Below are positions 1-53,192 of a DNA stretch of 64,000 nt, in pieces (position 1 is the stretch's first letter; every line of letters starts with the position of its first letter). Origin of the DNA: Patescibacteria group bacterium (lineage in GTDB: Bacteria; Patescibacteriota; Patescibacteriia; Patescibacteriales; JBAZCA01); NCBI GenBank assembly GCA_041661505.1, contig JBAZUF010000003.1, positions 74,772-138,771 of the forward strand, given 5' to 3'. The position numbers and the translations under genes are program-made. Under the pieces are notes generated by a model that saw only the letters and a program-made list of their open reading frames with translations, ran no database searches and was not told where the DNA came from.

Positions 1-243
1 TTTCAGGAATTTGAAATCGGAACCGGCCAAAGCCGCTCGATTCGAAAATTGGTTTTAATGATAAAAAAAATGACGGGCAATAATACTTCCCGGCTTAATT
101 GGGGGGCTCTGCCTTACAAAGAAGGGGAAGCGATGGATTCCAGGGCGCGGGTTTCCCGCAACAAGAAATTAAAGTGGCGGGCAGAGTACGATTTAAAAAA
201 TGGCCTTAAAAAAACGCTTGAGTATTATTTATCAAATAAATGA
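1..243 (+). CDS. NAD-dependent sugar epimerase/dehydratase (extended SDR), C-terminal fragment; gene starts upstream of window
   Basis: Frame 1 is open from base 1 to TGA 241-243. The tail EYDLKNGLKKTLEYYL resembles GalE/RmlB-like C-termini. The track start at 49 is an internal TTG. The stop overlaps the next ATG (ATGA). Confidence 0.45.
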   Translation, partial: FQEFEIGTGQSRSIRKLVLMIKKMTGNNTSRLNWGALPYKEGEAMDSRARVSRNKKLKWRAEYDLKNGLKKTLEYYLSNK

Positions 244-1652
244 ATACAGTTCTCATTAATCCTCCGCTCAATCTGGATTTGCGCCAAAATATTTTTTCCA
301 CCCAATATCCTCTGAATTTAGGCTATCTGGGAGCGGTTCTGGAAAAGAATGGTTTTTCAGTCAAGCTCTACGATTACGCGGTCGAAAATTTTAACGAGGA
401 AGAATTCCTGCGGCGGATAAAAGATGATGGTGTCCGATTGGCCGGCGTGACGGCTATGACCAACACTATCATATCCGCCGGACGGCTGATTCGAATTTTG
501 AAGAAAAATTTTCCGGAAGTAACAACGGTTTTAGGAGGAACTCATCCGACCGCATTGCCTGAAAGAACTTTCGAAGAAATTCCCGAGCTGGACTATATTA
601 TAATGGGGGAAGGAGAACTTACGCTCCTGGAGCTTTGCAAAACTCTGGAAAATTCCGGCAGTACGGGAAATATTCAAGGGTTGGCCTTCCGGGAAGAAGA
701 CGGAACAATCGTAAAGAATCCCCGCCGTCCGCTAATAGAGGATTTGGACGTCCTGCCTTTTCCCAGCCGCGATTTATCGCGCCCCGAACTATATTGCCGC
801 TCGCATACTTCCCGGGGGATTTCCAGGAAGTTTTTAAAAATCGCCGAACTGATGACTTCCCGAGGCTGCCCTAGCCAGTGTATTTTCTGCGCGGGACACA
901 TCAGTTATGGCTACCGGGTAAGGTTTAGGAGCGCCGAAAATGTTTTAGCCGAAGCCGAGGAGTGCGTTAGGAAATACGGCATCCAGCACTTCACCATACT
1001 AGACGACACTTTTACCCTGAAGCCGGAAAGGACTGCCGCTATTTGCGAAGGCTTGAAAAAAATGGGGGCTACCTTTGACTGCAATACCCGGGTGAACGCG
1101 GTAAGCCGGGAGTTGATAGTTAAAATGGCGGAAACCGGCTGCAAAAAAATTTCTTTCGGAATCGAATCCGGGAGCCAGAGGATGTTAAAACTGATAAAAA
1201 AAGGGACTACGGTAGAAGAGATAAAAAGAGCGGTGGGTTGGGCCCGCGAAGCCGGAATCCATATTGTTGAGGGGACTTTTATCCTGGGTTCGCACCCGGC
1301 AGAGACCCGAAGCGATATTGAAGAAACGCTTAAATTAATGAAAGAACTTGATTTAGATTTTATTTCTTACGGCATTATTGTTCCTTTTCCGGGAACCGAG
1401 GTTTATGAAATTATGCTTCTAAAAGGCCTCCTTTCCCCCAAAGTTTCCTGGGACAAGTTTGTTTTTGCCGGTGAGCCTCCCTGGCGGATTGAAAATTTTT
1501 CCGCTAGCGAGCTTTTAAAAATCCAAAAGCGAGTCTATCGGGAATTTTTTCTGCGTCCGGGTTACGTTTTAAAGCGGATCAAAAGGACAAATATTCGGGA
1601 ATTGAAATATTATTCTGGCGCTTTAGCTGATTTTATCAAAAACTTGATATGA
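240..1652 (+). CDS. B12-binding-domain radical SAM protein (class B rSAM, paralog 1 of 4)
   Basis: N-terminal B12-like Rossmann region (LGYLGAVLEKNGFSVKLYD, GVTAMT, VLGGTHPT, IIMGEGE), then Cys triad SRGCPSQCIFCAG (Cx3Cx2C). 470 aa. ATGA overlaps on both sides. Confidence 0.8.
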   Translation: MNTVLINPPLNLDLRQNIFSTQYPLNLGYLGAVLEKNGFSVKLYDYAVENFNEEEFLRRIKDDGVRLAGVTAMTNTIISAGRLIRILKKNFPEVTTVLGGTHPTALPERTFEEIPELDYIIMGEGELTLLELCKTLENSGSTGNIQGLAFREEDGTIVKNPRRPLIEDLDVLPFPSRDLSRPELYCRSHTSRGISRKFLKIAELMTSRGCPSQCIFCAGHISYGYRVRFRSAENVLAEAEECVRKYGIQHFTILDDTFTLKPERTAAICEGLKKMGATFDCNTRVNAVSRELIVKMAETGCKKISFGIESGSQRMLKLIKKGTTVEEIKRAVGWAREAGIHIVEGTFILGSHPAETRSDIEETLKLMKELDLDFISYGIIVPFPGTEVYEIMLLKGLLSPKVSWDKFVFAGEPPWRIENFSASELLKIQKRVYREFFLRPGYVLKRIKRTNIRELKYYSGALADFIKNLI

Positions 1653-2716
1653 AAAATTTTTATCGGGATAAAAAGATACTTATTACCGGCCATACCGGAT
1701 TCAAGGGAGCCTGGCTTACTCAAATTTTGTTAAACTGGGGCGCAGATATCGCCGGCCTTTCTCTTCTGCCGGAGACCGAACCCAGTCTTTTTGAGGTTTT
1801 GGGACTGCAAAAAAAAATTACTAATTATTTTTATGATATAAGAGATTACTCGCTGGTTAGAAAGGTTGTTTTAAAAGAAAGGCCGGAGATTGTTTTCCAT
1901 TTGGCCGCCCAAGCGCTGGTAAGGGAAAGTTATGACGATCCGATAAAAACTTTTGCCACCAACACTATGGGCACCGTCCATATTCTTCACGCTATCCGCG
2001 AAGCAGGATGCGTAAAATCAGCGGTAATTATTACAACTGACAAAGTTTATAAAAATGCCGGCCAAAACCGTCCCCAAAAAGAGGCGGATCCCCTGGGCGG
2101 GCATGATCCTTATAGCGCGAGCAAGGCCGCCGCGGAGATGGTGATTGAATCTTATGCCAAGTCTTTTTTTAATCCGGCGGACTTTAGAAAAAATCACAAC
2201 ACTTTAATCGCCAGCGCCCGCGCCGGAAATGTAATCGGGGGAGGCGATTGGGCCCGGGACCGGCTTATCCCGGATTTTATAAGATCGGCCTGCGAAAAGA
2301 AAAATAAATTAACAATCAGAAAGCCCAAAGCCATCCGGCCCTGGCAGTATGTTCTGGATCCGCTTTCCGGGTATTTAATTCTTGCCAAAAGGCTTCATGC
2401 CGGGGAAAAGAAATTGAGTTCAGCCTGGAATTTCGGCCCCCCAAAAAGAAGTTTTGTTTCGGTAGAGGAAATTATGAAGAAGCTCTCAATTATGCTAGGC
2501 GAGGCGGATTATAAGATAAGACCACAAAACGATAAGCCCGAAGCCGATGTATTAAAGCTTGATGCTAGTAAAGCCGAAAAACTATTGGGCTGGACGCCGA
2601 AATATAATCTGGATCAAAGCCTTGAGTGCGCGATGGAATGGTACAAAGGCTATTATTCTGATCCCGGCCACATCTTAAAATTGACCGATAATCAAATTAA
2701 GAGGTTTTTTAATTAG
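1649..2716 (+). CDS. rfbG: CDP-glucose 4,6-dehydratase
   Basis: N-terminus FYRDKKILITGHTGFKGAWL is the hallmark start of RfbG-type dehydratases. YSASKAAAE supplies the catalytic YxxxK. 355 aa. Confidence 0.8.
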   Translation: MKNFYRDKKILITGHTGFKGAWLTQILLNWGADIAGLSLLPETEPSLFEVLGLQKKITNYFYDIRDYSLVRKVVLKERPEIVFHLAAQALVRESYDDPIKTFATNTMGTVHILHAIREAGCVKSAVIITTDKVYKNAGQNRPQKEADPLGGHDPYSASKAAAEMVIESYAKSFFNPADFRKNHNTLIASARAGNVIGGGDWARDRLIPDFIRSACEKKNKLTIRKPKAIRPWQYVLDPLSGYLILAKRLHAGEKKLSSAWNFGPPKRSFVSVEEIMKKLSIMLGEADYKIRPQNDKPEADVLKLDASKAEKLLGWTPKYNLDQSLECAMEWYKGYYSDPGHILKLTDNQIKRFFN

Positions 2717-10588: not shown

Positions 10589-12460
10589 ATGTGCGGAATC
10601 GCCGGATATTGGGGTGAAGGGAATCGAAAAATACTGGAAGACATGACCCGGTCCATTAGCTATCGCGGTCCGGATGATGAAGGTTTTTTTACGGATAATA
10701 ATGTTGGACTTGGCCATCGGCGCCTTTCTATCCTCGATTTAAGTCCGGCCGGGCATCAGCCGATGGCCAGCGAGGCCGGGGATGTGATTATCGTTTTTAA
10801 CGGAGAAATTTATAATTTTCGGGAACTGGGAGAAAAAATTAAAGTCCGGCACGATTTCAAAAGCCAAACCGACACCGAAGTAATACTCCATCTTTATGAA
10901 GAAATCGGAGAGAAAGTCTTTACTGAAATCCAGGGCATGTTCGCTTTGGCGATTTATGACCGGCGGAAAGGAAAAATTATACTGGCTCGGGACCGGATGG
11001 GAAAAAAGCCGCTTTACTGGTTTATAGCCGGACGATCTTTAATTTTCGGTTCAGAGATAAAAGCTTTGATGAAACACCCGCTTTTTAAAAAGGAATTGGA
11101 TTTAGCGTCTTTAAGCAAATACCTGACTTATGAATATGTACCAACACCGAAAACCATTTTTTCAAACACCCAGAAATTAAAACCCGGCCATTTTTTAAGC
11201 TGGAACGGGAAAGAGCTTAAGACGGAAAAGTTTTGGGAAGTTGAATTTGGGCGCGCGCCGGTTAAAGATTTTAAAGACGGCCTCATTAAGCTGGATCAAG
11301 CTCTTAACCAGGCGGTTTCGGCTCGAATGATTAGCGATGTCCCTTTGGGAGTATTTTTGTCCGGAGGAATTGATTCAAGCGCTATCGCTTATTACGCTCA
11401 AAAAAACAGTTCAAGCAAGATAAAAACTTTTACCATTAGCTTCAAAGAAGAGAGCTTTGGCGAGGCCCGATTCGCCCGCCAGGTAGCCAGGCATCTGGGA
11501 ACCGACCACCACGAAAAAGAATTTTCCCATAATGACTGCTTGGAGCTTTTGCCCCGAATAGCCCGCTTATTAGACGAGCCGTTGGCCGACCCGTCCATAC
11601 TGCCCACCTTTATTCTTTCCGGCTTTACCCGGGAGAGAGCCTCGGTAGCTTTAGGTGGAGACGGCGGAGATGAGCTTTTTTTAGGCTATGATACTTTTTT
11701 AGCCCACCAGGCTGAATATTGGTACGAAAGGCTTCCCGGTTTTTTCAGAAAAGGTATAATAGAGAGGGGAGCGGGGCTTCTCCCAACCTCTTTAAATAAT
11801 ATCAGCTGGGATTTCGCGGTGAAAAGCTTTGTCCGGGGTTTTGACGGCGAAAAAAAGTACCGATACCAAAGATGGCTAGCGGCGTTCCTTCCCAAGGATA
11901 AATCAGAGTTGTTTACTCCGGAGGTTTTTAATCAGCTGTCCGGCCAAAATGAATTTGAAGAGATTGATGTTTGGCAAAAAAACGTTGAGAGAGAAAACTA
12001 CTTTAACCAGCTAACTAACCTTTACTTGCGCACCTATTTGATGGATGATATTCTAACTAAGGTCGACCGGGCCGGTATGTATAATTCGCTCGAGGTGCGG
12101 TCGCCTTTCTTAGACGCCAGCGTAGTTGATTTGGCCAATAGTTTTCCGATTGGATGGAAATTAAAAGGCTTTAAGACGAAATACATTTTAAAAAAATTAA
12201 TGCAAGGCCGGCTGCCCGAAGAAATTATTTGGCGCAAGAAAAAAGGCTTTGGCATTCCGCTCGCCCGCTGGCTTGCCGGACCGTTAAAGGAATTAGTTTT
12301 GGACTATTTGAGCGCGGAAGCTTTAAGAAAACAAGGAATCTTTAATCCGCGGCAGGTGGAAAGATTACTAAACGAACATTTCTCGGGAAAAAAAGATAAT
12401 CGCAAACAAATTTGGACCCTTCTTATTTTTCAGATGTGGTCAAAAAATTATTTGGAATAA
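10589..12460 (+). CDS. asnB: Asparagine synthase (glutamine-hydrolysing)-like amidotransferase
   Basis: MCGIAG N-terminal nucleophile Cys2, GEIYNF, and SGGIDSS PP-loop. 623 aa. Confidence 0.85.
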   Translation: MCGIAGYWGEGNRKILEDMTRSISYRGPDDEGFFTDNNVGLGHRRLSILDLSPAGHQPMASEAGDVIIVFNGEIYNFRELGEKIKVRHDFKSQTDTEVILHLYEEIGEKVFTEIQGMFALAIYDRRKGKIILARDRMGKKPLYWFIAGRSLIFGSEIKALMKHPLFKKELDLASLSKYLTYEYVPTPKTIFSNTQKLKPGHFLSWNGKELKTEKFWEVEFGRAPVKDFKDGLIKLDQALNQAVSARMISDVPLGVFLSGGIDSSAIAYYAQKNSSSKIKTFTISFKEESFGEARFARQVARHLGTDHHEKEFSHNDCLELLPRIARLLDEPLADPSILPTFILSGFTRERASVALGGDGGDELFLGYDTFLAHQAEYWYERLPGFFRKGIIERGAGLLPTSLNNISWDFAVKSFVRGFDGEKKYRYQRWLAAFLPKDKSELFTPEVFNQLSGQNEFEEIDVWQKNVERENYFNQLTNLYLRTYLMDDILTKVDRAGMYNSLEVRSPFLDASVVDLANSFPIGWKLKGFKTKYILKKLMQGRLPEEIIWRKKKGFGIPLARWLAGPLKELVLDYLSAEALRKQGIFNPRQVERLLNEHFSGKKDNRKQIWTLLIFQMWSKNYLE

Positions 12461-12463
12461 ACT

Positions 12464-13228: not shown

Positions 13229-13229
13229 T

Positions 13230-18551: not shown

Positions 18552-18594
18552 AAAAGATTGCTTTTTATTAAAGATTAGAGTTTTTGGTGTAAAA

Positions 18595-18623
18595 ACTATA
18601 CTTTTTTTACACTGAATCGTCAA
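18595..18623 (-). promoter_or_regulatory. Sigma70-like promoter TTGACG-N17-TATAGT for wecB
   Basis: On the minus strand, -35 is 18623-18618 and -10 is 18600-18595, with GTG start at 18551. The TTG of the -35 box is the ORF-track start codon. Confidence 0.5.
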
Positions 18624-18684
18624 TATTTACAACCAATGAGTAAGATGGTCAAATAGTTATGGAACGCAATTATAATTTTTCCAG

Positions 18685-24306: not shown

Positions 24307-24308
24307 GC

Positions 24309-33000: not shown

Positions 33001-33046
33001 CTGGAGGGCAATGTAAGGCAGTCTGGTTATAAAGAGAATAAAATAT

Positions 33047-37195: not shown

Positions 37196-37212
37196 AGACC
37201 GGGTTTTTCTTT
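37185..37212 (+). terminator. Terminator-like hairpin overlapping the neuA stop
   Basis: CCCGG-N9-CCGGG (5 GC pairs) followed by TTTTTCTTT. Confidence 0.35.
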
Positions 37213-37271
37213 AGGGGGCGAACACCGGGAAATCCATTGAAAGATGCATATATTAGTGCTAAACTGGATTT

Positions 37272-39231: not shown

Positions 39232-39240
39232 GATTAGTAT

Positions 39241-40281: not shown

Positions 40282-40399
40282 AAAAGATGCAGTTTAAGGA
40301 AGCGGATTAAGCGGTTTGACACCGCTTCGCGGCAAGCCCCTTATGCCCGGTATGGGAGCGCGCATGGGCGTTTGACAACCATGGCAAAAATAAAGCGAT

Positions 40400-46037: not shown

Positions 46038-46081
46038 AATATAAATTAAAAATGTCTGATAATACAAATTTTATTCGCTCT

Positions 46082-46102
46082 CCGCACACTGCTAGTGTGC
46101 GG
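46082..46102 (+). other. Perfect 9-bp stem-loop ending 15 nt before ATG 46118 (pseB)
   Basis: CCGCACACT-GCT-AGTGTGCGG. Confidence 0.55.
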
Positions 46103-46117
46103 ATCGTTCAATCATTT

Positions 46118-47143
46118 ATGAATACCGAAATTTTGAAAGATAAAGTGATTTTAATTACCGGCGGAACCGGGTCGTTTGGCCGGGGTTTTGTAGAATTTTT
46201 ACTCAAGAATTCGGAAGCCAGAAAAATAATTATCTTCAGCCGCGACGAATTGAAGCAGTTTCATATGGAAAACGAATTGCGCGAATATAGCGACCGGCTA
46301 AGATTTTTTTTGGGAGACATCCGGGACAAGGACCGGCTCCAGCGCGCTTTCCGGGGGGTGAATATCGTCATCCATGCCGCGGCCTTAAAGCAGGTGCCTA
46401 CTTTAGAATATAACCCCTTTGAAGCGGTAAAAACCAATATCATCGGCTCGCAAAACGTAATTGAAGCCGCCATTGACCAGGGCGTGGACAAAGCAGTGTT
46501 TATTTCTACCGACAAGGCGGCCCAGCCGGCCAATCTTTACGGCTCAACCAAGCACTGCGCGGAAAAACTTTTCGTTAACGCCGGCTCTTACTCCGGCGGG
46601 CGTACGACTTTTTCTTCCGTCCGTTACGGCAATGTGATTGGGAGCCGGGGAAGCATAGTCGAAGTATTGATGAAGAACCGGAATTTGGAAAGAGTGAGGG
46701 TTACCCACGCAGAAATGACCCGGTTTTGGATTACCCTGGATCAGAGTTTCGGGCTGGTCCTTTTTGCCCTGGAACATATGCGCGGCGGGGAAATTTTTAT
46801 TCCCAAAATTCCCAGCATGAAATTGATTGATCTTTTTGAGGCATTAGCGCCAAACGCAGTAAAAGAAATAGTCGGCATCCGGCCAGGAGAAAAACTCCAT
46901 GAAGCGCTAATCACCGCCGAGGAGTCCCGCCATACATTAGAACTCGATAATCATTTTGTGATTCTTCCCGAGTTTAAAAAGACCCCCCATACTGACAGGG
47001 TAATCGGTGAGCGCTACGGCCATTTTTTTGAAAAGGGAAAAAAATTGCCTGAAGACTATTGCTACTTAAGTAATAATAATCCCCATGTGCTCACCCCGGA
47101 GGAGTTCCGGCAAATCGTTAATGACTTATTCTCAAGCCTATAA
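46118..47143 (+). CDS. pseB: UDP-N-acetylglucosamine 4,6-dehydratase (inverting), PseB-like
   Basis: MNTEILKDKVILITGGTGSFG, FLGDIRD, VIHAAALKQVP, STDKAA, YGSTKHCAEK, followed directly by pseC. Start moved from 46052 to ATG 46118: the skipped 66 nt contain a perfect 9-bp hairpin. Confidence 0.75.
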   Translation: MNTEILKDKVILITGGTGSFGRGFVEFLLKNSEARKIIIFSRDELKQFHMENELREYSDRLRFFLGDIRDKDRLQRAFRGVNIVIHAAALKQVPTLEYNPFEAVKTNIIGSQNVIEAAIDQGVDKAVFISTDKAAQPANLYGSTKHCAEKLFVNAGSYSGGRTTFSSVRYGNVIGSRGSIVEVLMKNRNLERVRVTHAEMTRFWITLDQSFGLVLFALEHMRGGEIFIPKIPSMKLIDLFEALAPNAVKEIVGIRPGEKLHEALITAEESRHTLELDNHFVILPEFKKTPHTDRVIGERYGHFFEKGKKLPEDYCYLSNNNPHVLTPEEFRQIVNDLFSSL

Positions 47144-47144
47144 T

Positions 47145-48260
47145 ATGATTCCTTACGGCCGCCAGTCAATCGATAAAAAGGACATAGAGGCAGTGCTTAG
47201 CGTATTAAAATCGGCTTGGCTCACCCAAGGGCCGAAGGTTTTGGAGTTTGAAAAAGCTTTAGCCGAATACTGCGGGGCTAAATTCGCGGTCGCGGTTTCA
47301 AACGGAACTTCCGCCCTGCATCTGGCCTATCTGGCCGCCGGCATAAAAAAAGGCGACGAGGTAATTACTACCCCAAACACTTTTGCCGCCACCTCGAATA
47401 TGATTTTAGCAGTTGGCGCCAAACCGATTTTTTCCGACATCCGCCTGGATACTTATAATATTGACGAAAAAAAAATCGAGAAAGCAGTGAAAAAAAACAC
47501 CAAGGCGATTGTTCCGGTGCATTTTGCCGGCCAGGCCTGTGAAATGGAAGTGATTAATAAACTGGCTAAAAAGAAAAAGCTAATGGTTATTGAGGATGCC
47601 TGCCACGCCCTTGGAGCCAAATATAAAAATAGTAAAATCGGCCGTTGCAAGTTTTCCGATATGGCGGTTTTTAGCTTCCACCCGGTTAAAAATATAACTA
47701 CCGGCGAAGGCGGAGCGATAATGACCAACAGCGAGGCATTATATAAAAAGCTTGTTTCCCTGCGAAGCCATGGCATTTATAAAGACTCTAAAGGGAAAAA
47801 CGTTATGGTAGAGCTCGGGTATAACTACCGCATTACCGATTTCCAATGCGCGCTAGGCCTTTCCCAACTAAAGAGGCTGGACCGGATGGTGCGGGAAAGA
47901 AGAAAGATTGTTGGATGGTATAAAAAAGAAATGGCCGGAATAGAAGAAATTATATTGCCCAAGGAATTGGCCGGTAATTATTCCGCTTGGCACATTTACG
48001 TGATTAGAGTAAAAAATGCCCGGCTGCGGGACAAACTGTCGACCCATCTGAAAAGAAAGGGGATTGGAGCGAATTTTCATTATCCGGCGGTTTATTCGCA
48101 TCCATATTATAAAAAACTCGGATATAAGAAAAAAGGAATGGCGAATGAAGAAGTTTACCAGAATTCCTGCATTACTCTGCCGTGTTTTGTCGGTTTAACT
48201 AGAAAAGATGCGGGTTATGTCGCAAAGACCATTAAAGAATTTCTCCATGAAAAACACTAA
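47145..48260 (+). CDS. pseC: UDP-4-amino-4,6-dideoxy-N-acetyl-beta-L-altrosamine transaminase, PseC-like
   Basis: MIPYGRQSIDKKDIEAV..LTQGPKV is the characteristic PseC start. EDACHALGA, SFHPVKNITTGEGG (PLP Lys). The ATG lies 1 nt after the pseB stop. Confidence 0.8.
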   Translation: MIPYGRQSIDKKDIEAVLSVLKSAWLTQGPKVLEFEKALAEYCGAKFAVAVSNGTSALHLAYLAAGIKKGDEVITTPNTFAATSNMILAVGAKPIFSDIRLDTYNIDEKKIEKAVKKNTKAIVPVHFAGQACEMEVINKLAKKKKLMVIEDACHALGAKYKNSKIGRCKFSDMAVFSFHPVKNITTGEGGAIMTNSEALYKKLVSLRSHGIYKDSKGKNVMVELGYNYRITDFQCALGLSQLKRLDRMVRERRKIVGWYKKEMAGIEEIILPKELAGNYSAWHIYVIRVKNARLRDKLSTHLKRKGIGANFHYPAVYSHPYYKKLGYKKKGMANEEVYQNSCITLPCFVGLTRKDAGYVAKTIKEFLHEKH

Positions 48261-49191
48261 TATAATTATTGCCGGCTTCGGCTCAATCGGCCAAAGGCAC
48301 TACAAAAATTTAAAAACCCTGGGCTATAAAAACCTTTGGGTTTATGATCCATACATAAGCCAGCCAGGCAGAGAGGTGAAGCTGTTAAAAAAGTTAGATG
48401 AGAAAGAGCTAAAAAGCTTTGATATCGCTTTTATATGCAACCCCAACCAGCTTCATGTTGAAGCGGCATTAGCCTGCGCTAAAGCCGGGTGCCATTTATT
48501 TATTGAAAAGCCGTTATCACATAAACTGGAGAATGTAGAAAAATTGGCTAAAATTTGCCAAAAAAACAAATTAGTAAATATGGTTGCCTGCAATATGCGT
48601 TTTCATCCGGCCCTGAAATTTATAAAAAAATACCTGGAAGATGGTAAAATCGGCAAAATTCATAGCCTGCAGCTACAGACCGGCTATTTTCTTCCTTTCT
48701 GGCGCCCAAATTCCGATTACCGAAAAAATTATGCCGCCAAGAAAAAGACCGGCGGCGGCATAATTTTAGACGGGATTCATAATTTTGATTTATTATTCTG
48801 GCTAAACGATTTTAATAGGGTAAAAAAATCCAGTTTAGTGTACGACCGGGTAGGGAGCTTGGAAATTGAGACTGAAGATAATTTTGTGGCCGGTTTTGTA
48901 TTTCAAAATAAAGTTATGGGGTCCGTAATCGGCGACTATTTGCAGAAGGCTTATTCCTGGACAGCAAAAGTAGTCGGGGAGAAGGGAAACCTCGCTTGGG
49001 ATTTTAAAGAAAATATAGTCTGGCTCGCTGACGAAAAAGGAAAAAATAAATTATGGTCAATAAAAAATTACGACCCAAACAAGATGTACGCGGAAGAAAC
49101 AAAATATTTTCTAGACTGCGTTAGATCCAGGAAAAAAACTTTTAATGATATTACACGGGCGGCTGACGTATTAAAATATTGCCTAAAGTGA
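48247..49191 (+). CDS. Gfo/Idh/MocA family oxidoreductase
   Basis: NIIIAGFGSIGQRHYKNL, IEKPLSH. Paralog of 37272-38225. Start moved to ATG 48247 (14-nt overlap with pseC). Confidence 0.65.
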   Translation: MKNTNIIIAGFGSIGQRHYKNLKTLGYKNLWVYDPYISQPGREVKLLKKLDEKELKSFDIAFICNPNQLHVEAALACAKAGCHLFIEKPLSHKLENVEKLAKICQKNKLVNMVACNMRFHPALKFIKKYLEDGKIGKIHSLQLQTGYFLPFWRPNSDYRKNYAAKKKTGGGIILDGIHNFDLLFWLNDFNRVKKSSLVYDRVGSLEIETEDNFVAGFVFQNKVMGSVIGDYLQKAYSWTAKVVGEKGNLAWDFKENIVWLADEKGKNKLWSIKNYDPNKMYAEETKYFLDCVRSRKKTFNDITRAADVLKYCLK

Positions 49192-49269
49192 GTTGTATAA
49201 AAAATGTGTACAGACAGTTAGATGGAATTCTCATTTGTTTTTCATCGCGCTGTGCCCGTTTACTACGTT

Positions 49270-50040
49270 ATGAAAGATAAAGTGCTATGCATAATCCAGG
49301 CAAGGATGGGGTCAAGCCGCTTGCCGGGAAAGGTGCTTTTGGACCTGGCCGGCGAGCCGGTTTTGGCCCGAATTATTGAAAGGGTGAAAAAGTCCAAGTT
49401 AATCGATAAAATAATAATTGCCACGAGCGGAAAAAAAGACGATGATGAAATCGACCGCCTGGGAACAAAGCTCGGCATAGATGTCTTTCGGGGAAGCGAG
49501 AACGACGTGCTGGACAGGTATTATCAGGTGGCGAAACATTACGGTTATGGGCACATCGTCCGCGTAACCGGCGACTGCCCATTAATTGATCCGGGAATAA
49601 TTGACGAAGTTATCAGCTTATACCGCCTGGAAGACGTAGATTACGCGACTAATGTCATACCGCCGACTTACCCGGATGGCTTGGACGCAGAAATTTTTTC
49701 TTTCGCGGCTTTGGAAAAGGCCTGGAGGGAGGCCAAGCTCAATTCCGGCCGGGAGCACGTTACGGTTTATATGTGGCAGAACCCCGGCAAATTCAAGCAA
49801 GCGCATCTAAATAATAGCGTTGATTTATCGGCCAAGCGCTGGGTCCTCGACAATCCGGAAGATTACGAGGTAATGAAAAGTGTGTATGAAAAATTGTATG
49901 CTAATAACCCCGAGTTTAGAATGAAAGATTTGCTTATGTGGTTTGGCCTGCATCCGGAGATTGAAGATTTAAACAAAAAAATCGGACGGAACGAAGGCCT
50001 GGCCAAGTCATTAAAAGAGGATAAAATTATAGATAACTAA
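49270..50040 (+). CDS. Cytidylyltransferase, SpsF/FlmC/PseF-like (CTP_transf_3 superfamily)
   Basis: MKDKVLCIIQARMGSSRLPGKVL is the SpsF-type signature. VRVTGDCPLIDP. Start moved from 49222 to ATG 49270. Confidence 0.7.
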   Translation: MKDKVLCIIQARMGSSRLPGKVLLDLAGEPVLARIIERVKKSKLIDKIIIATSGKKDDDEIDRLGTKLGIDVFRGSENDVLDRYYQVAKHYGYGHIVRVTGDCPLIDPGIIDEVISLYRLEDVDYATNVIPPTYPDGLDAEIFSFAALEKAWREAKLNSGREHVTVYMWQNPGKFKQAHLNNSVDLSAKRWVLDNPEDYEVMKSVYEKLYANNPEFRMKDLLMWFGLHPEIEDLNKKIGRNEGLAKSLKEDKIIDN

Positions 50041-50052
50041 TAATAACCGAAT

Positions 50053-51342
50053 ATGAATTTCACGCGCTCAAACCAATTATTAAAAAAGGCGAAAAAATTA
50101 ATCCCCAACGCCACCCAAACCCTTTCTAAGGGCTATAAGATGTTTACCGAAGGCGAGTTTCCCTTGTTCGTTTCCAAAGCCAAAGGATGCTATATTTGGG
50201 ACGCTGACGGCAACAAATATATCGACTATACCTGCGCGCTCGCGCCGATAATCCTCGGCTACAGCGTTAACGAGATAAATTCTGCCATCAAAAAACAGCT
50301 GGAAAATGGGATTACTTATTCGCTTCCGCATAAGCTGGAAGTAGAATTGGCCGAAAAGCTTATAGAAATTATTCCTTGCGCCGATATGGTGCGTTTCGTG
50401 AAGAACGGCGTTGACGCGACTTCGGCGGCGGTGCGCATTGCCCGGGCTTATACCGGAAAAGAAATAGTCTTGCGCGGCGGCTACCACGGCGCCCAAGACT
50501 GGTATTTGGCTTCGCAGCCGCCCCAGGATTTAGGCGTGCCGAAAACGATGAAGAAGTTAATCGACATTTTTAAATATAATGACATTAAGGATTTTAAAGC
50601 GAAAATAAATAAGCACAAAGGAAAAATTGCCGCCGTCATAATGGAGCCGGTGCCGATGGCTGATCCAAAACCAGGTTATTTGGAAGAAATAAGAAGGATA
50701 ACCAAAAAAGAGGGAATAGTATTAATTTTTGACGAAATCGTAACCGGCTTCAGAATGTCTTTGGGCGGCGCCCAGGAATACTACGGAGTCATTCCGGATT
50801 TGGCTTGTTTTGGCAAAGCCATGGCTAACGGCATGCCCATCTCTTGCGTCGTGGGGAGCCGAAAAATCATGGAAAAAACCGAAGAGGTTTTTGTTTCCAC
50901 TACCTTTGGCGGCGAAACTTTGTCCATGGCCGCCAGCCTGGCCACCATTGATTTCATTATAAAAAATAAGGTAATAAAACACACCTGGAAGGTCGGCGGA
51001 ATACTATACCGCGGCCTGGAAGCCCTAATAAAAAAATACGGGATCAAAGCCCATTTAATCGGCCAGGAATTTAAATTCAAATTGATCTTTGACAATCCGG
51101 ACAAAACAGAATCAACTGCCAAGAAATTATATTTTCTCCAGCAGTCGGCCTACCGCGGCGTGTTCTGGGGCACAGTAATTACTTTTAACTTTAGCCATAA
51201 AGAAAAAGACATAAAATTTACTCTGAAAGCAGCCGAGGAAGTGTTTAGGAAAATGAGGGCGTTAAATGATGACGAAAACGAGATAAAAAAATTGGTTAAA
51301 GGAAAAATTCCGGTTAACAAATTTTTAAGAGACCAAAGATGA
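50053..51342 (+). CDS. Class III aminotransferase (glutamate-1-semialdehyde aminomutase-like)
   Basis: DADGNKYIDY, VKNGVDATSAAVRIAR, FDEIVTGFR, FGKAMANG (PLP Lys). Confidence 0.75.
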   Translation: MNFTRSNQLLKKAKKLIPNATQTLSKGYKMFTEGEFPLFVSKAKGCYIWDADGNKYIDYTCALAPIILGYSVNEINSAIKKQLENGITYSLPHKLEVELAEKLIEIIPCADMVRFVKNGVDATSAAVRIARAYTGKEIVLRGGYHGAQDWYLASQPPQDLGVPKTMKKLIDIFKYNDIKDFKAKINKHKGKIAAVIMEPVPMADPKPGYLEEIRRITKKEGIVLIFDEIVTGFRMSLGGAQEYYGVIPDLACFGKAMANGMPISCVVGSRKIMEKTEEVFVSTTFGGETLSMAASLATIDFIIKNKVIKHTWKVGGILYRGLEALIKKYGIKAHLIGQEFKFKLIFDNPDKTESTAKKLYFLQQSAYRGVFWGTVITFNFSHKEKDIKFTLKAAEEVFRKMRALNDDENEIKKLVKGKIPVNKFLRDQR

Positions 51343-52034
51343 AAGTATCCATATTCCAGCCAACTTATCTGCCCTGGCTCGGATTTTTTAAGGTGATTGA
51401 TTGGGCCGAAACGTATGTCATTTTAGACCACGTCCAGTTTGAGCATCACTCCTGGCAGCACCGCAATCGGATAAAAGGCCAAAACGGGGCGCTAACTCTA
51501 ACCGTCCCGATCGTGAGAGAATTCGGACAAAACATAAATAAAGTAAAAATTTGCTATGATAAAAATTGGATAAAAAAGCATTTAGATTCAGTACGGATGA
51601 ATTATTCCAAGGTACCGTATTTTCAAGATTTTTATCCGCTTTTGGAGAGTTATTATGCCAATCCGCCGGAAAAGCTCATCGACTTGAATCTGCGGATAAT
51701 AAAAGGGCTGTGCGAATATTTAGGCATTAATACTGAATTTGTCCTTTCATCCGGACTTGGCGCAGGAGATTTAAGAAAAAATGAATTATTAATCGACATT
51801 TTAAAAAAAACTCGCGCAGCCGAGTATCTCTATGCGGCCGGAGCGGCCGAGTATATGAACGAGGCGAAGGCCCTATATGAGGCCGCCGGCATAAAGCTCA
51901 TTCCGCTAGAGTTTGAACATCCGGTCTATAATCAGCCGCACGGCGGGTTTATTTCCCATCTTTCGATAATTGATATAATATTTAATTTGGGGAAAGAAAA
52001 AACTATCGAAATAATTAAGGAAATAAAATTATAA
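51339..52034 (+). CDS. WbqC family protein (function unknown)
   Basis: MKVSIFQPTYLPWLGFFKVIDWAETYVILDHVQF..WQHRNRI matches the WbqC-like signature. ATGA overlap. Confidence 0.7.
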   Translation: MKVSIFQPTYLPWLGFFKVIDWAETYVILDHVQFEHHSWQHRNRIKGQNGALTLTVPIVREFGQNINKVKICYDKNWIKKHLDSVRMNYSKVPYFQDFYPLLESYYANPPEKLIDLNLRIIKGLCEYLGINTEFVLSSGLGAGDLRKNELLIDILKKTRAAEYLYAAGAAEYMNEAKALYEAAGIKLIPLEFEHPVYNQPHGGFISHLSIIDIIFNLGKEKTIEIIKEIKL

Positions 52035-52049
52035 TATAAAAAATCATAT

Positions 52050-53192
52050 ATGGAAATACAAAAATCCCAAGAAGATAATAATGAGGCCAAGAGAAAATTG
52101 AATTACTTAAGTTTTATTTATAATGCCACCCACCCCAACCCGGCCGCGGCCAGCCCGCCGCACCAGGTTTATATTGAAATGACCAATGTCTGCAACTTGC
52201 GCTGCCTGCATTGCCCGCAAAGCACTATGCGCAGAAGGCCGCAATATATGGATATGGGGCTTTTCGAAAAAGTAGTAAAAGATTTAGCGCCGGGCTTGCC
52301 CTTTGTTGACTTGTATATGCAAGGAGAATCACTTCTTCATCCGAAAATTGTTGAAGCCGTAAAGATTTGTGCCGAAAACGGATTAAAGCCCCGGATTACG
52401 ACCAACGCCACTTTGTTAACCAAAGAGCTGTCAAAAAAATTGATCGGAGCCGGACTAAATAAAATCGAGTTTTCTTTGAGCGGGGTAACCAAAAAGACTT
52501 ATGAAGAAATGCACCGGGGGGCGATTTATGAAAAAACTTTAAACAACATTTTGGATTTTTTGGAGTTAAACGCCGAAGCCGGCTTTCCGGTTCATACCCG
52601 GCCGGTTTTTGTTGAAGAGGAAAAAACCAAGGCCGATAAAGAGCGATATTTATATTTATTTTCTAAGCTGCCTTTAGATGATGTTTACGTGAGCCCTCTA
52701 ATTAATATGTTTGGCTGGAACAAAGAGATAAATTTAAACCCTTTTAAATCAAAGCCGAGGGAAGAATGGCCGGTCTGCAAATGCCCTTGGCGGCAATTCG
52801 GCATAAACGCCGATGGCAGCGTCCGGGCCTGCATTTTTGATTACGATTCGCGCTATCTAATCGGCGACGCCAACGAATCGAATGTCTTAGAACTGTGGAA
52901 CGGCGAGGCTATGCAGAAATTCAGAAAAACCGTTATCGACCGGCGTTATGAGGATTTTGACAAGCCGGGATTGCCTTTATGCACCGAATGTTCGCAAATT
53001 TGGCCAACCGGCGACGATTCGCGGGATACGACCCAGTGGCCGAAAGATTTTGTGAAAGAAATGGAGCACTTTTTTTCGAGCCACGAGCCCCTAATGAAAG
53101 CCAAATACGCCAAAACCGGAGAGAAAGAAAAAAAATGGGGATATTTGAAGAATCATCGGGCCCAATGGATGGACGAAGCGCTGGGGAATTGA
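52050..53192 (+). CDS. Radical SAM protein with C-terminal SPASM-like Cys cluster
   Basis: YIEMTNVCNLRCLHCPQ (Cx3Cx2C). C-terminal CKCPW..GSVRACIFD..LCTECSQ cysteine cluster. Confidence 0.75.
   Translation: MEIQKSQEDNNEAKRKLNYLSFIYNATHPNPAAASPPHQVYIEMTNVCNLRCLHCPQSTMRRRPQYMDMGLFEKVVKDLAPGLPFVDLYMQGESLLHPKIVEAVKICAENGLKPRITTNATLLTKELSKKLIGAGLNKIEFSLSGVTKKTYEEMHRGAIYEKTLNNILDFLELNAEAGFPVHTRPVFVEEEKTKADKERYLYLFSKLPLDDVYVSPLINMFGWNKEINLNPFKSKPREEWPVCKCPWRQFGINADGSVRACIFDYDSRYLIGDANESNVLELWNGEAMQKFRKTVIDRRYEDFDKPGLPLCTECSQIWPTGDDSRDTTQWPKDFVKEMEHFFSSHEPLMKAKYAKTGEKEKKWGYLKNHRAQWMDEALGN

What the first reader, a model, noticed from the sequence alone, without database searches (positions are those of the whole stretch)
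240..53192. Four paralogous cobalamin-domain radical SAM enzymes plus a SPASM radical SAM inside one glycan locus
Seen: ORFs 240-1652, 14173-15588, 20496-23159 (N-terminal half) and 30148-31584 share an N-terminal B12-binding-like Rossmann region followed by a Cys triad (CPSQCIFC, CPWGKCTFC, CVGFCGFC, CINRCNFC). ORF 52050-53192 has CNLRCLHC plus a C-terminal Cys cluster (SPASM-like).

Each is tightly coupled to sugar enzymes. Its neighbours are RfbG, the AsnB/methyltransferase block, the pyruvyl transferase, the HisF-like gene and PseI.

Established: class B rSAMs need cobalamin and catalyse methylation or rearrangement at unactivated centres.

Inference: there are several radical tailoring steps on sugars. 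No cobalamin synthesis or uptake gene is visible here, so the cofactor would have to come from elsewhere. That is notable if the host is a reduced-genome symbiont.
Basis: partly seen in the sequence, partly recalled or inferred. Interest (0 to 1): 0.7.

Follow-up and report, generated by a model that had tools for sequence, protein, structure and literature searches.

The report
Radical SAM enzymes in glycan island
A very large cell-surface sugar gene island from an uncultured, small-genome (Patescibacteria-labelled) bacterium carries four vitamin-B12-type radical enzymes and one BtrN-like radical enzyme, each sitting inside a different sugar-building pathway, which points to unusual and so far uncharacterised sugar chemistry that probably needs scavenged B12.

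Summary
ORFs 240-1652, 14173-15588, 20496-23159 (N-terminal half) and 30148-31584 all pass Pfam B12-binding plus Radical_SAM. ORF 52050-53192 is Radical_SAM plus SPASM.

Corrections and additions:
- The four are old paralogues (27-31% identity). Each has closer orthologues (44-68%) in other organisms.
- Enzyme B carries a non-canonical CX4CX2C motif that is conserved in its clade.
- The "SPASM" domain keeps only four conserved auxiliary Cys (Twitch-like), and its closest structure is BtrN.
- Two more B12-type rSAMs lie within 10 kb upstream, so the island (at least 67 kb) has at least six.

None reaches any curated family cut-off (HpnJ, BchE, AprD4 and others).

Conserved gene context and domain fusions tie them to glycan synthesis:
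- A sits in a CDP-6-deoxyhexose operon.
- C sits in a CPR-conserved cassette and is fused elsewhere to GT4, a polysaccharide deacetylase or a six-hairpin domain.
- D and the Twitch enzyme sit in nonulosonic-acid clusters.

NCBI labels the source a Patescibacteria MAG.

Cobalamin binding is likely: the fold and the GGxH/GEGE motifs are shared with solved binders. It is not proven. The chemistry is unknown; I consider C-methylation the most likely.

These are uncharacterised variants of a known enzyme class. Interest is moderate to high.

The parts
240..1652 (+). rSAM_A: B12-binding-type Rossmann domain plus radical SAM core (CPSQCIFC). It overlaps by 4 nt both the upstream SDR and the downstream CDP-glucose 4,6-dehydratase.
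   Evidence: Pfam. AF2 model pLDDT 92.5. Foldseek best matches MgmA, AprD4, TsrM, OxsB, CysS, TokK. Orthologues at 40-62% identity in Nealsonbacteria, Omnitrophota, Geobacter and DPANN, next to DegT, methyltransferase and 4,6-dehydratase genes.
1649..2716 (+). CDP-glucose 4,6-dehydratase (RfbG). The Glc-1-P cytidylyltransferase and a 299-aa SDR lie just upstream of the window.
   Evidence: TIGR02622 451.7 bits (cut-off 278). Upstream gene TIGR02623 310.9 bits (cut-off 300). Gene order.
10589..14081 (+). AsnB-type amidotransferase plus two class I SAM methyltransferases, preceding rSAM_B.
   Evidence: Pfam.
14173..15588 (+). rSAM_B: B12-binding-type rSAM with a clade-conserved non-canonical CX4CX2C motif (CPWGKCTFC).
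   Evidence: Pfam. Motif statistics. 8,606 50%-cluster representatives at E<=1e-30; closest 60%, then 36-44%.
15603..17408 (+). 9-TM membrane protein without a Pfam match, 14 nt downstream of rSAM_B. Candidate GT-C or polymerase. A homologue follows the rSAM_A orthologue in Nealsonbacteria.
   Evidence: L002.
17433..20486 (-). UDP-GlcNAc 2-epimerase, GT4 glycosyltransferase and methyltransferase, downstream of rSAM_C in the same operon.
   Evidence: Pfam. Homologues in the same positions in L108 and L109.
20496..23159 (-). rSAM_C: B12-binding-type rSAM (residues 1 to about 470, CVGFCGFC) fused to a C-terminal six-hairpin (alpha/alpha)6-like carbohydrate-active domain (residues about 506-887).
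   Evidence: Pfam: Pec_lyase 29.9 bits (GA 22), GH127 26.3 (GA 24.9). Clade at 45-58% identity, named members mostly CPR, either stand-alone or fused to GT4, PF01522 deacetylase or a six-hairpin domain.
23164..25823 (-). Polysaccharide pyruvyl transferase and a 504-aa distant KpsS/KpsC-like (PF05159-related) protein. The latter is paired with rSAM_C in all 5 contexts examined.
28251..30050 (+). Fused TMD-NBD ABC exporter, conserved beside the rSAM_C cassette and the rSAM_D orthologues. Probably a glycan or lipid-linked-oligosaccharide exporter; it is the fused TMD-NBD exporter architecture rather than a binding-protein-dependent importer.
   Evidence: Pfam. Synteny.
30148..31584 (+). rSAM_D: B12-binding-type rSAM (CINRCNFC; GEAE instead of GEGE), 1 nt upstream of HisF.
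   Evidence: Pfam. 20 orthologous metagenome loci at 44-68% identity. NeuB and/or a CMP-NulO cytidylyltransferase homologue nearby in 9 of them; WbuX with HisF and/or HisH adjacent in 4. Motifs.
31586..34303 (+). HisF-like cyclase, HisH-like glutaminase and WbuX N-acetyl-sugar amidotransferase (acetamidino-forming module).
   Evidence: Pfam. TIGR03573 398.9 bits (cut-off 203).
36461..41557 (+). Neu/Leg-like nonulosonic-acid module: cytidylyltransferase, two GFO oxidoreductases, NeuB-like synthase and NeuC hydrolysing 2-epimerase.
   Evidence: Pfam. NeuC TIGR03568 385 bits (cut-off 236). NeuB TIGR03569 375 bits (below the cut-off of 400).
46052..52034 (+). Pseudaminic-acid module, first part: PseB, PseC, GFO oxidoreductase, cytidylyltransferase, class III (GSA-aminomutase-like) aminotransferase and WbqC.
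   Evidence: PseB 434.7 bits (cut-off 408) and PseC 465.6 bits (cut-off 424). Pfam.
52050..53192 (+). Twitch/SPASM-type radical SAM enzyme (CNLRCLHC plus four conserved auxiliary Cys), BtrN-like.
   Evidence: Pfam. Invariant Cys. PDB sequence best hits BtrN, DesII, BlsE. AF2 pLDDT 84.9. Foldseek top hit BtrN, 1.1e-12. Small family (about 20 cluster representatives at 46-80% identity) found beside NulO/aminosugar genes in every context examined, with NeuB in 3 of the 4 other genomes.
53208..55700 (+). PseI (pseudaminic acid synthase), formyltransferase and AP_endonuc_2 TIM-barrel protein.
   Evidence: PseI 461.6 bits (cut-off 340)..
55773..57125 (-). Polyprenyl-phosphate glycosylphosphotransferase (priming enzyme). 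It marks the downstream end of the island; housekeeping genes follow.
   Evidence: TIGR03025 355.6 bits (cut-off 295.6). Downstream holB, frr, rseP, dnaG, rpoD.

Best explanation
The window is most of a surface-glycan biosynthesis island of at least 67 kb, from an uncultured bacterium that NCBI labels Patescibacteria (CPR).

It holds four (six in the whole island) anciently diverged class-B-type radical SAM enzymes and one Twitch-type radical SAM enzyme. Each is built into a different sugar sub-pathway, and I propose that each performs one radical tailoring step on a nucleotide-sugar or lipid-linked glycan intermediate.

Proposed mechanism for each B12-type enzyme (inferred, not shown):
- The [4Fe-4S] cluster cleaves SAM to a 5'-deoxyadenosyl radical.
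- The radical abstracts an H atom from an unactivated sugar or N-acyl carbon.
- A base-off cobalamin held in the N-terminal Rossmann domain then delivers a methyl group. This is my first choice of chemistry, at about 0.4-0.5. Alternatively it supports a rearrangement.

Placement of each enzyme:
- A acts on a CDP-6-deoxyhexose intermediate (operon RfbF - SDR - A - RfbG).
- B acts in the AsnB/methyltransferase block.
- C acts together with a KpsS-like transferase and a pyruvyl transferase. It may act on the growing glycan, since its clade is fused to GT4, deacetylase or six-hairpin domains.
- D acts on an acetamidino nonulosonic acid.
- The Twitch enzyme acts in the pseudaminic-acid branch. It may be a BtrN-like dehydrogenase whose keto product a neighbouring aminotransferase could aminate.

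Cobamide would have to be scavenged.
For: Shown:
- Domain content is confirmed.
- No protein belongs to any curated non-glycan family.
- A sits between an SDR and CDP-glucose 4,6-dehydratase with 4-nt overlaps, and Glc-1-P cytidylyltransferase lies upstream.
- A orthologues lie beside DegT, methyltransferase, dehydratase, GT2 and AsnB genes.
- The C cassette (504-aa protein, pyruvyl transferase, C, GT4 or 2-epimerase, ABC exporter) is syntenic at 43-58% identity in Uhrbacteria and other contigs.
- The C clade is fused to GT4, PF01522 or a six-hairpin domain.
- D orthologues lie in NeuB/cytidylyltransferase/WbuX-HisFH clusters.
- The Twitch family lies beside NulO or aminosugar genes in the window and in all four other genomes examined, with NeuB in three of the four; a B12-rSAM is within two genes in three of them.
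- The A model has the class I B12-rSAM fold.
- The A Rossmann domain aligns with OxsB, CysS, TsrM, TokK and MgmA, sharing GGxH and GEGE. AprD4's N-domain does not align.
- These motifs are present in A, B, C, E and F. D has GEAE.
- The Twitch enzyme has BtrN as best hit by sequence and by fold, and four conserved auxiliary Cys.
- The island has a priming phosphoglycosyltransferase, GTs, GT-C-like membrane proteins and an exporter.

Inferred: the substrates, the chemistry and cobalamin use.
Against: - No biochemical data exist for any of these clades.
- Fold search ranks AprD4, a cobalamin-independent diol dehydratase, as high as the true binders. The B12-type fold therefore does not prove cobalamin use.
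- The closest curated HMMs are HpnJ and BchE, which are not methyltransferases.
- The island already has at least 9 ordinary SAM methyltransferases.
- In the profile alignment, the position matching TokK's hydrophobic lower-axial Trp76 is a small or polar residue in the A family. In the review's scheme this leans away from radical methylation. That alignment is in a loop and is weak evidence.
- B's CX4CX2C spacing is unusual.
- The Patescibacteria label rests on NCBI naming only.
- An aminotransferase near the Twitch enzyme is weak evidence, because all NulO clusters contain aminotransferases.
Confidence: 0.6

Rival explanations
1. Some or all of the B12-type enzymes are cobalamin-independent, like AprD4. 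In particular, rSAM_A together with the adjacent 299-aa SDR would carry out an AprD4/AprD3-style radical dehydration plus reduction, that is, a deoxygenation of a CDP-hexose. This would replace the missing E1/E3 (RfbH/RfbI) pair of the classical CDP-3,6-dideoxyhexose pathway.
For: - AprD4 is the best sequence hit in the PDB for A (5.4e-26; profile 2.8e-37).
- AprD4 ties for the best structural match (TM 0.75).
- The operon has RfbF, an SDR, A and RfbG. No E1/E3-type gene appears among the annotated genes of the window or the 10 kb upstream.
- The review notes that AprD4 and ArsL sit in the same similarity network without binding cobalamin.
Against: - The similarity to AprD4 is confined to the rSAM core (positions 165-400). 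AprD4's N-domain scores -2.9 bits against the A-family profile.
- OxsB, CysS, TsrM, TokK and MgmA align through the Rossmann domain with conserved GGxH and GEGE.
- NCBIfam AprD4 scores 104.6 bits against a cut-off of 500.
- Pfam B12-binding scores 85 bits for A.
Confidence: 0.15
2. The enzymes bind cobalamin but do not methylate. They would catalyse radical rearrangements of sugars, such as ring contraction to a carbocycle (HpnJ-like or OxsB-like), cyclisation or C-C bond formation. Ordinary methylations would be left to the many class I methyltransferases in the island.
For: - The best curated HMM matches are HpnJ for A and B (222 and 210 bits) and BchE for C and D (113 and 118 bits). Both are non-methylating.
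- From my own knowledge, not checked here: HpnJ is reported to contract a hexosamine ring in hopanoid cyclitol ether synthesis.
- OxsB is among the structural matches.
- A small or polar residue sits at the TokK Trp76-equivalent position.
- At least 9 class I methyltransferases are present.
Against: - All these scores are far below the family cut-offs, so they reflect superfamily similarity only.
- C-methyltransferases are the largest characterised group of B12-rSAMs.
- MgmA/QCMT, a methylase of similar size, is the top structural hit.
- Class I methyltransferases cannot methylate unactivated sp3 carbons, so their presence does not make a radical methylase redundant.
Confidence: 0.2
3. The radical SAM enzymes do not act on sugars. 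They would modify a lipid anchor, a peptide (RiPP-like) or a cofactor, and would be merely co-located with glycan genes.
For: Weak NCBIfam similarity to RiPP and lipid B12-rSAMs: ApyD 165 bits, rSAM_ocin_1 126 bits, ladderane-type 110 bits. Arrays of B12-rSAM paralogues in Bathyarchaeota loci often lack recognisable sugar genes.
Against: - Start and stop codons overlap with sugar-nucleotide enzymes.
- Orthologues keep their sugar-gene neighbours across phyla.
- The C clade is covalently fused to GT4, polysaccharide-deacetylase and six-hairpin domains.
- The Twitch enzyme's best sequence hits in the PDB are three rSAMs acting on sugar or aminocyclitol substrates (BtrN, DesII, BlsE), and BtrN and DesII also lead the fold search, where peptide-modifying rSAMs (SuiB, anSME) rank close behind.
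Confidence: 0.05

Closest known systems
Class I cobalamin-dependent radical SAM enzymes with solved structures (MgmA/QCMT 9CCB, TsrM 6WTE, OxsB 5UL4, TokK 7KDY, CysS 9N1B)
   Same: N-terminal five-stranded Rossmann domain followed by a radical SAM partial TIM barrel. The A model matches at Foldseek E 4e-27 to 6e-20 and TM 0.67-0.75. The GGxH and GEGE motifs in the Rossmann domain are shared.
   Different: Sequence identity is only 17-22%. These enzymes lack the extra C-terminal domains of TokK, CysS and TsrM. The substrates of the solved enzymes are a protein, Trp, a nucleotide, a carbapenem and a polyketide-type intermediate; none is a surface-glycan precursor. C is fused to a six-hairpin domain, and B uses CX4CX2C.
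AprD4 (radical SAM 1,2-diol dehydratase of apramycin biosynthesis, PDB 6FD2) with its reductase AprD3
   Same: Best PDB sequence hit for A and an equal-best structural match. It acts on an aminoglycoside sugar (6FD2 is solved with its substrate paromamine). An SDR sits next to A, as AprD3 partners AprD4 (the AprD3 role is from my own knowledge).
   Different: AprD4 does not bind cobalamin. Its N-domain is not recognised by the A-family profile. The NCBIfam AprD4 model scores 104.6 bits against a cut-off of 500.
HpnJ (TIGR03471) and BchE (TIGR02026)
   Same: These are the highest-scoring curated families for A and B (HpnJ) and for C and D (BchE). They have a similar length (about 470-500 aa) and the same two-domain plan.
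   Different: Scores are 2.5- to 4-fold below the equivalog cut-offs. No hopanoid or bacteriochlorophyll genes are nearby.
GenK / GenD1 (cobalamin-dependent rSAM C-methyltransferases acting on gentamicin sugars)
   Same: They set the precedent that B12-rSAMs methylate unactivated carbons of aminosugars. They are listed among the carbohydrate-acting members in PMC12931638.
   Different: They belong to secondary-metabolite (antibiotic) pathways in actinomycetes and act on pseudo-oligosaccharides, not on nucleotide-sugar or nonulosonate pathways. I made no direct sequence comparison here.
BtrN (2-deoxy-scyllo-inosamine dehydrogenase, Twitch-domain rSAM, PDB 4M7T)
   Same: Top hit for 52050-53192 by sequence (1.3e-8) and by fold (1.1e-12, TMt 0.70). 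Four conserved auxiliary Cys suggest a single auxiliary cluster, as in the Twitch domain of BtrN (from my own knowledge). Aminotransferases lie nearby, as in BtrN's oxidise-then-transaminate pairing with an aminotransferase (from my own knowledge).
   Different: Identity is only about 19%. The protein is 130 residues longer, with N- and C-terminal helical extensions. It sits in a pseudaminic-acid cluster, not a 2-deoxystreptamine pathway. DesII, anSME, SuiB and BlsE score within 2-3 orders of magnitude.

Membership tests
Class B (cobalamin-type) radical SAM enzymes | N-terminal B12-binding-type Rossmann domain (PF02310) followed by a Radical_SAM core (PF04055) | tested here: met
   All four proteins are above the Pfam gathering scores for both domains. 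The two upstream paralogues also carry both domains.
Class B (cobalamin-type) radical SAM enzymes | Canonical CX3CX2C cluster motif | tested here: inconclusive
   A, C, D, E and F have CX3CX2C. B has CX4CX2C, conserved in 11 of its 12 closest cluster representatives. Three Cys are present, but with non-canonical spacing.
Class B (cobalamin-type) radical SAM enzymes | Three-dimensional architecture of class I B12-rSAMs (Rossmann domain packed against a partial TIM barrel) | tested here: met
   Tested for A only: AF2 pLDDT 92.5. Best matches MgmA, TsrM, OxsB, CysS and TokK at TM 0.67-0.75. AprD4, a non-binder, matches equally well.
Class B (cobalamin-type) radical SAM enzymes | Actual binding of cobalamin (base-off) and cobalamin-dependent turnover | not testable with these tools
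   No diagnostic sequence motif exists: B12-rSAMs have no DxHxxG. Indirect support comes from the GGxH and GEGE motifs shared with solved binders and absent from the AprD4 alignment.
HpnJ (TIGR03471) / BchE (TIGR02026) / ladderane-type lipid rSAM (TIGR04072) / HpnR (TIGR04367) | Score at or above the curated equivalog cut-off | tested here: not met
   Best scores against cut-offs: HpnJ 222 against 577.6; BchE 194 against 481; TIGR04072 110 against 360; HpnR 100 against 650.
AprD4 family radical SAM diol dehydratase (NF033070) | Score at or above the curated cut-off (500 bits) with a full-length match | tested here: not met
   104.6 bits for A, covering residues 163-398 only. The PDB alignment is restricted to the core.
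SPASM-domain radical SAM enzymes | Seven-Cys SPASM motif binding two auxiliary [4Fe-4S] clusters | tested here: not met
   The Pfam SPASM domain matches (52 bits). Only four auxiliary Cys are invariant across 14 family members, and only a CX2C follows the hairpin. This fits an abbreviated, Twitch-like domain. NF033640 (twitch) scores 52 bits, below its cut-off of 170.
BtrN-like Twitch rSAM dehydrogenases | rSAM core plus a single auxiliary cluster domain, and a BtrN-like fold | tested here: inconclusive
   BtrN is the top hit by sequence and by fold, and four auxiliary Cys are conserved. Identity is about 19%, and other SPASM/Twitch enzymes score close behind. Dehydrogenase activity is not testable here.
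Pseudaminic acid biosynthesis cluster (context of the Twitch rSAM) | PseB, PseC and PseI above the equivalog cut-offs | tested here: met
   PseB 434.7 against 407.75; PseC 465.6 against 423.5; PseI 461.6 against 340.25. I found no clear PseG or PseH.
CDP-6-deoxyhexose pathway (context of rSAM_A) | Glucose-1-phosphate cytidylyltransferase and CDP-glucose 4,6-dehydratase above the equivalog cut-offs | tested here: met
   TIGR02623 310.9 against 300.25 (upstream gene, L106 8218-9027). TIGR02622 451.7 against 278.45 (window 1649-2716).

The most novel reading that the evidence does not exclude
A candidate-phyla-radiation bacterium with a minimal genome spends at least 67 kb on a surface glycan whose building blocks are remodelled by seven radical SAM enzymes. 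The building blocks include a CDP-6-deoxyhexose, a pyruvylated ManNAc-type unit and two nonulosonic acids.

This reading would mean three things:
- It would yield sugar structures not yet described, for example C-methylated or ring-rearranged nonulosonic acids, or a further-aminated pseudaminic acid made by a BtrN-like oxidation followed by transamination.
- It would include the first radical SAM enzymes that work fused to glycosyltransferase, deacetylase or six-hairpin domains on a growing polymer.
- It would make the cell's outer surface dependent on cobamide scavenged from its host or community.
Probability: 0.3. Interest if true: 0.75.

Novelty: new variant of a known kind. Interest (0 to 1): 0.55.

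Why it matters
Cobalamin-type radical SAM enzymes form a very large and mostly uncharacterised group. One paralogue alone has 8,606 50%-identity cluster representatives at E<=1e-30. The sugar-acting members the review names are from antibiotic pathways, for example gentamicin. I found no paper in the searchable library that links radical SAM enzymes to nonulosonic-acid biosynthesis or to CPR surface glycans.

This work defines four to five distinct clades with conserved glycan contexts. One has Rosetta-stone fusions to glycan enzymes. These give concrete, testable entry points:
- CDP-sugar assays for A.
- CMP- or UDP-nonulosonate assays for D and the Twitch enzyme.

If the CPR origin holds, the finding also links the surface chemistry of an obligate small-genome organism to an externally supplied cofactor. 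That bears on how such cells depend on partners.

Tried and rejected
1. Filing the enzymes under curated families. NCBIfam scans put all five far below every equivalog cut-off, so no family name is justified.

2. Using the fold to decide cobalamin binding. Foldseek ranks AprD4 (a non-binder) with the true binders, so the fold alone does not decide it. I fell back on motif and profile alignment.

3. Identifying the C-terminal domain of C by PDB sequence search. There were no significant hits; the best E-value was 0.009. Only marginal Pfam six-hairpin matches were found.

4. Looking for cobalamin riboswitches or other RNAs. There are no Rfam hits and no tRNAs in the window.

5. Literature searches. 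Ten searches combining radical SAM or cobalamin with Patescibacteria, CPR, nonulosonic, pseudaminic or polysaccharide terms found no study of such enzymes. The only related item is an annotation-level mention of phase-variable SPASM-type rSAMs in a Campylobacter fetus region that also lists methyltransferase, SDR and formyltransferase-domain genes.

6. Recent in-locus duplication as the origin of the paralogues. Rejected: identity among them is 27-31%, against 44-68% to orthologues elsewhere.

7. The ABC transporter or the EamA protein as a B12 importer. Rejected: the ABC protein is a fused TMD-NBD exporter type and is syntenic with the glycan cassette in other genomes.

8. Whole-genome search for cob, cbi or btu genes.

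9. Independent verification of the taxonomy. Not achieved: only NCBI labels and CPR-rich orthologue lists are available.

Full report
**1. Observation**

The five ORFs are present as described, and the quoted cysteine strings are in their translations.

Pfam places a B12-binding domain (PF02310) and a Radical_SAM core (PF04055) in four of them. I call these A (240-1652), B (14173-15588), C (the N-terminal half of 20496-23159) and D (30148-31584). All scores are above the gathering cut-offs. ORF 52050-53192 has Radical_SAM plus SPASM.

- CDP-glucose 4,6-dehydratase, TIGR02622, 452 bits against a cut-off of 278.
- AsnB and two methyltransferases.
- A polysaccharide pyruvyl transferase and HisF.
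- PseI, 462 bits against a cut-off of 340.

Spacing to the neighbours ranges from 4-nt overlaps to 97 nt.

**2. Corrections**

- The four B12-type proteins share only 27-31% identity. Each has much closer relatives elsewhere: A up to 62%, B 60%, C 45-58% and D 44-68%. They are ancient paralogues brought together in one island, not local duplicates.
- B's motif CPWGKCTFC is CX4CX2C. That spacing is kept in 11 of its 12 nearest cluster representatives. It occurs in only 1 of 180 other homologues that I had fetched. It is therefore a clade signature.
- In the SPASM-type protein only four auxiliary cysteines are invariant across 14 family members: C243, C261, C311 and C314. This fits a single-cluster, Twitch-like domain rather than a full seven-Cys SPASM.
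- The island continues upstream of the window. On a contig identical to the window over 11,652 nt there are two more B12-type rSAMs of 498 and 495 aa (motifs CPHQCTFC and CPYNCQFC). They sit among GT4, GT2 and GT1 glycosyltransferases and methyltransferases, together with Glc-1-P cytidylyltransferase and an SDR.
- The island ends downstream at the priming phosphoglycosyltransferase (55773-57125). Housekeeping genes follow: holB, frr, rseP, dnaG and rpoD.

**3. Source**

The window is part of a 247-kb metagenomic contig, ENA ERZ27249449. NCBI names all the proteins I looked up 'MAG... [Patescibacteria group bacterium]'.

Two observations fit this label. The named members of the C clade are Uhrbacteria, Falkowbacteria, Kuenenbacteria and unclassified Patescibacteria. 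The best species-representative hit for A is a Nealsonbacteria MAG.

I could not verify the placement independently. I also could not search the rest of the genome for cobalamin genes. The window has no cobalamin synthesis or uptake gene and no cobalamin riboswitch.

**4. Not a known non-glycan family**

No protein reaches any NCBIfam equivalog cut-off. The best scores are HpnJ 222 against 578 and BchE 194 against 481. AprD4, HpnR, the ladderane-type lipid enzyme, PhpK and the MCR glutamine methylase are all far below threshold.

**5. Cobalamin domain**

The AF2 model of A, built from 28 homologues, has pLDDT 92.5. Its best PDB matches are MgmA/QCMT, AprD4, TsrM, OxsB, CysS and TokK, with E-values from 4e-27 to 6e-20 and TM 0.67-0.75.

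A recent review (PMC12931638) makes three relevant points:
- B12-rSAMs bind cobalamin base-off, with no protein ligand to cobalt (unlike DxHxxG His-on enzymes).
- Class I members share a five-stranded Rossmann domain.
- AprD4 and ArsL lie in the same similarity network without binding cobalamin.

The fold therefore cannot settle the question. The A-family profile does help. It aligns through the Rossmann domain with OxsB, CysS, TsrM, TokK and MgmA, with shared GGxH and GEGE motifs. AprD4 aligns only over the radical SAM core, and its N-domain scores -2.9 bits. The motifs are present in A, B, C, E and F, while D and most of its orthologues have GEAE.

I take cobalamin binding as likely, roughly 0.65-0.7, but unproven.

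**6. Link to glycan synthesis, enzyme by enzyme**

*Enzyme A.* The operon order is Glc-1-P cytidylyltransferase, a 299-aa SDR, A, then CDP-glucose 4,6-dehydratase, with overlapping start and stop codons. This is a self-contained CDP-6-deoxyhexose pathway, and no E1/E3 (RfbH/RfbI) gene was recognised in the window or the 10 kb upstream. Orthologues at 40-48% identity sit next to other sugar genes:
- DegT plus a methyltransferase, in Geobacter and Nitrospirae.
- An RfbG-like dehydratase, in an archaeon.
- GT2 plus AsnB, in Omnitrophota.
- SDRs and GT2s, in Nealsonbacteria.

*Enzyme B.* It follows AsnB and two methyltransferases. A Pfam-less 9-TM protein follows it.

*Enzyme C.* The block is a 504-aa protein, a pyruvyl transferase, C, a methyltransferase, GT4 and UDP-GlcNAc 2-epimerase. 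It is transcribed divergently from a GNAT, a short DegT-like protein and an ABC exporter.
- The same block recurs at 43-58% protein identity in an Uhrbacteria genome and in other contigs.
- The pairing of C with the 504-aa protein holds in all 5 contexts examined. That protein is a distant PF05159 KpsS/KpsC-type relative.
- Within this tight clade the rSAM is either stand-alone (about 490 aa) or fused at its C-terminus to one of three domains: a GT4 glycosyltransferase, a PF01522 polysaccharide deacetylase, or a six-hairpin (alpha/alpha)6 domain as in the window.
- Such alternative fusions are strong evidence that the enzyme works in the same process as these carbohydrate-active domains.

*Enzyme D.* Twenty orthologous metagenome loci were recovered. 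NeuB and/or a CMP-nonulosonate cytidylyltransferase homologue is nearby in nine. WbuX with HisF and/or HisH, the acetamidino-forming amidotransferase, is adjacent in four, as it is in the window.

*Twitch enzyme.* It belongs to a small family of about 20 cluster representatives at 46-80% identity.
- In the window it lies among PseB, PseC, a cytidylyltransferase, a class III aminotransferase and WbqC upstream, and PseI, a formyltransferase and an AP_endonuc_2 protein downstream.
- In four other genomes it again lies beside NulO or aminosugar genes. NeuB is nearby in three of them and CTP_transf_3 in three. The class III aminotransferase is present in two, once fused to the cytidylyltransferase. 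The fourth (L112) shows DegT, ATP-grasp and PseG-like genes but no NeuB within 8 kb.
- A B12-rSAM lies within two genes in three of the four.

**7. How general the pattern is**

Among 79 species-representative loci fetched around A homologues, 45 carry at least two B12-type rSAM ORFs within +/-8 kb and nine carry at least four. Forty contain homologues of the window's sugar enzymes.

Clusters of several B12-rSAMs beside sugar genes are therefore a recurrent feature of uncultured bacteria and archaea. As far as I could find, the feature is uncharacterised.

**8. Mechanism (inferred)**

Each enzyme should cleave SAM reductively at its [4Fe-4S] cluster. The resulting 5'-deoxyadenosyl radical would abstract a hydrogen from an unactivated carbon of its sugar substrate.

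For the B12-type enzymes my first choice is methyl transfer from methylcobalamin. C-methyltransferases are the largest characterised group, and the review names gentamicin among the substrates of the C-methyltransferase group. MgmA, a methylase of the same size, is the top structural match.

I put this at only about 0.4-0.5, for three reasons:
- The nearest curated HMMs are the non-methylating HpnJ and BchE.
- The residue aligned with TokK's lower-axial Trp76 is small or polar in the A family. That alignment is weak.
- For A, an AprD4/AprD3-style deoxygenation using the adjacent SDR is a real alternative, given the missing E1/E3 genes.

For the Twitch enzyme, BtrN is the best match by sequence and by fold, and the count of auxiliary Cys agrees. 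This suggests oxidation of a secondary alcohol to a ketone. A neighbouring aminotransferase could then aminate the ketone. DesII-like or BlsE-like chemistry, or epimerisation, is not excluded.

**9. Novelty and verdict**

The enzyme class is known. The clades, their placement in CDP-hexose and nonulosonic-acid pathways, the fusions of C to glycan enzymes and the CX4CX2C clade are not described in anything I could find.

The open points are cobalamin binding, the actual reactions, the host's taxonomy and its source of B12. I rate this a new variant of a known kind, with interest 0.55.

Noticed in passing
L106 227-1723 and 4764-6251 (about 9.5 and 5 kb upstream of window position 1): Two further B12-binding-type radical SAM genes (498 aa with CPHQCTFC; 495 aa with CPYNCQFC). 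They are 34% identical to each other and 22-34% identical to A-D, and sit among GT4, GT2 and GT1 glycosyltransferases and methyltransferases. The island therefore starts outside the window.
   Followed up: partly
window 14173-15588 (residues about 212-220): A non-canonical CX4CX2C radical SAM motif. It is conserved in 11 of the 12 nearest 50%-cluster representatives and is nearly absent from other B12-rSAM homologues.
   Followed up: yes
window 36461-41557 and 46052-55700: One island holds two separate nonulosonic-acid pathways. One is Neu/Leg-like: NeuC above its cut-off, NeuB just below. The other is a Pse pathway: PseB, PseC and PseI above their cut-offs. I found no clear PseG or PseH. A formyltransferase and an AP_endonuc_2 TIM-barrel gene follow PseI, and the same formyltransferase and AP_endonuc_2 genes recur in L103.
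   Followed up: partly
window 24309-25823 (- strand) and 44601-46037 (+ strand): Two distant paralogues (20% identity, E 2e-9). The second hits PF05159 (KpsS/KpsC capsule synthesis). The first has no Pfam hit in the window, but its homologue in L113 has a faint PF05159 hit. They are candidate Kdo/NulO-type transferases. The first always accompanies rSAM_C.
   Followed up: partly
window 2851-5058, 8238-9641 and 15603-17408: Large membrane proteins with 12, 8 and 9 hydrophobic segments. Two have no Pfam match and one has a weak PMT (GT-C) hit. They are candidate polymerases, ligases or GT-C transferases. A homologue of the 601-aa protein follows the rSAM_A orthologue in Nealsonbacteria.
   Followed up: partly
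window 27243-28247: A 334-aa protein that matches only positions 111-308 of the 360-position DegT profile. A 334-aa homologue (43% identity) in L109 has a weak PF27889 PLP_IMCC1989 hit. It is probably a distinct short PLP-enzyme family rather than a truncated gene.
   Followed up: no
window 5135-5752, 12464-14081, 19860-20486, 34437-35420, 42489-43430 (plus two upstream in L106): An unusually high number of class I SAM-dependent methyltransferases in one glycan island: six in the window and at least two just upstream.
   Followed up: no
proteins P0303, P0333, P0336, P0370, P0392 (hits of rSAM_B): Giant proteins of 1,800-2,300 aa with two to six separate matches to the B12-rSAM query. They appear to be tandem multi-module B12-type radical SAM proteins.
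   Followed up: no
window 47085-48260 against 46052-47143, and 48208-49191 against 47085-48260: Mechanical ORF calls overlap by 59 and 53 nt. The PseC profile match starts at residue 21, so the true starts are probably at later ATG codons.
   Followed up: no
window 58445-59569 and 61586-63274: A BNR/Ycf48-like 'F510_1955 family glycosylhydrolase'-type protein (133 bits, below the cut-off of 175) and a FadD-like AMP-dependent ligase sit among housekeeping genes. The ligase is slightly unexpected for a genome labelled as CPR.
   Followed up: no
L113 (Logan SRR6484324 contig 6521): A second Patescibacteria-labelled genome from the same sample carries a stand-alone rSAM_C orthologue. Its neighbours are a KpsS-like 514-aa protein upstream and Methyltransf_21, GT2, a priming transferase and a Wzy_C protein downstream, followed directly by chemotaxis genes (MCP, CheW, CheA).
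   Followed up: no
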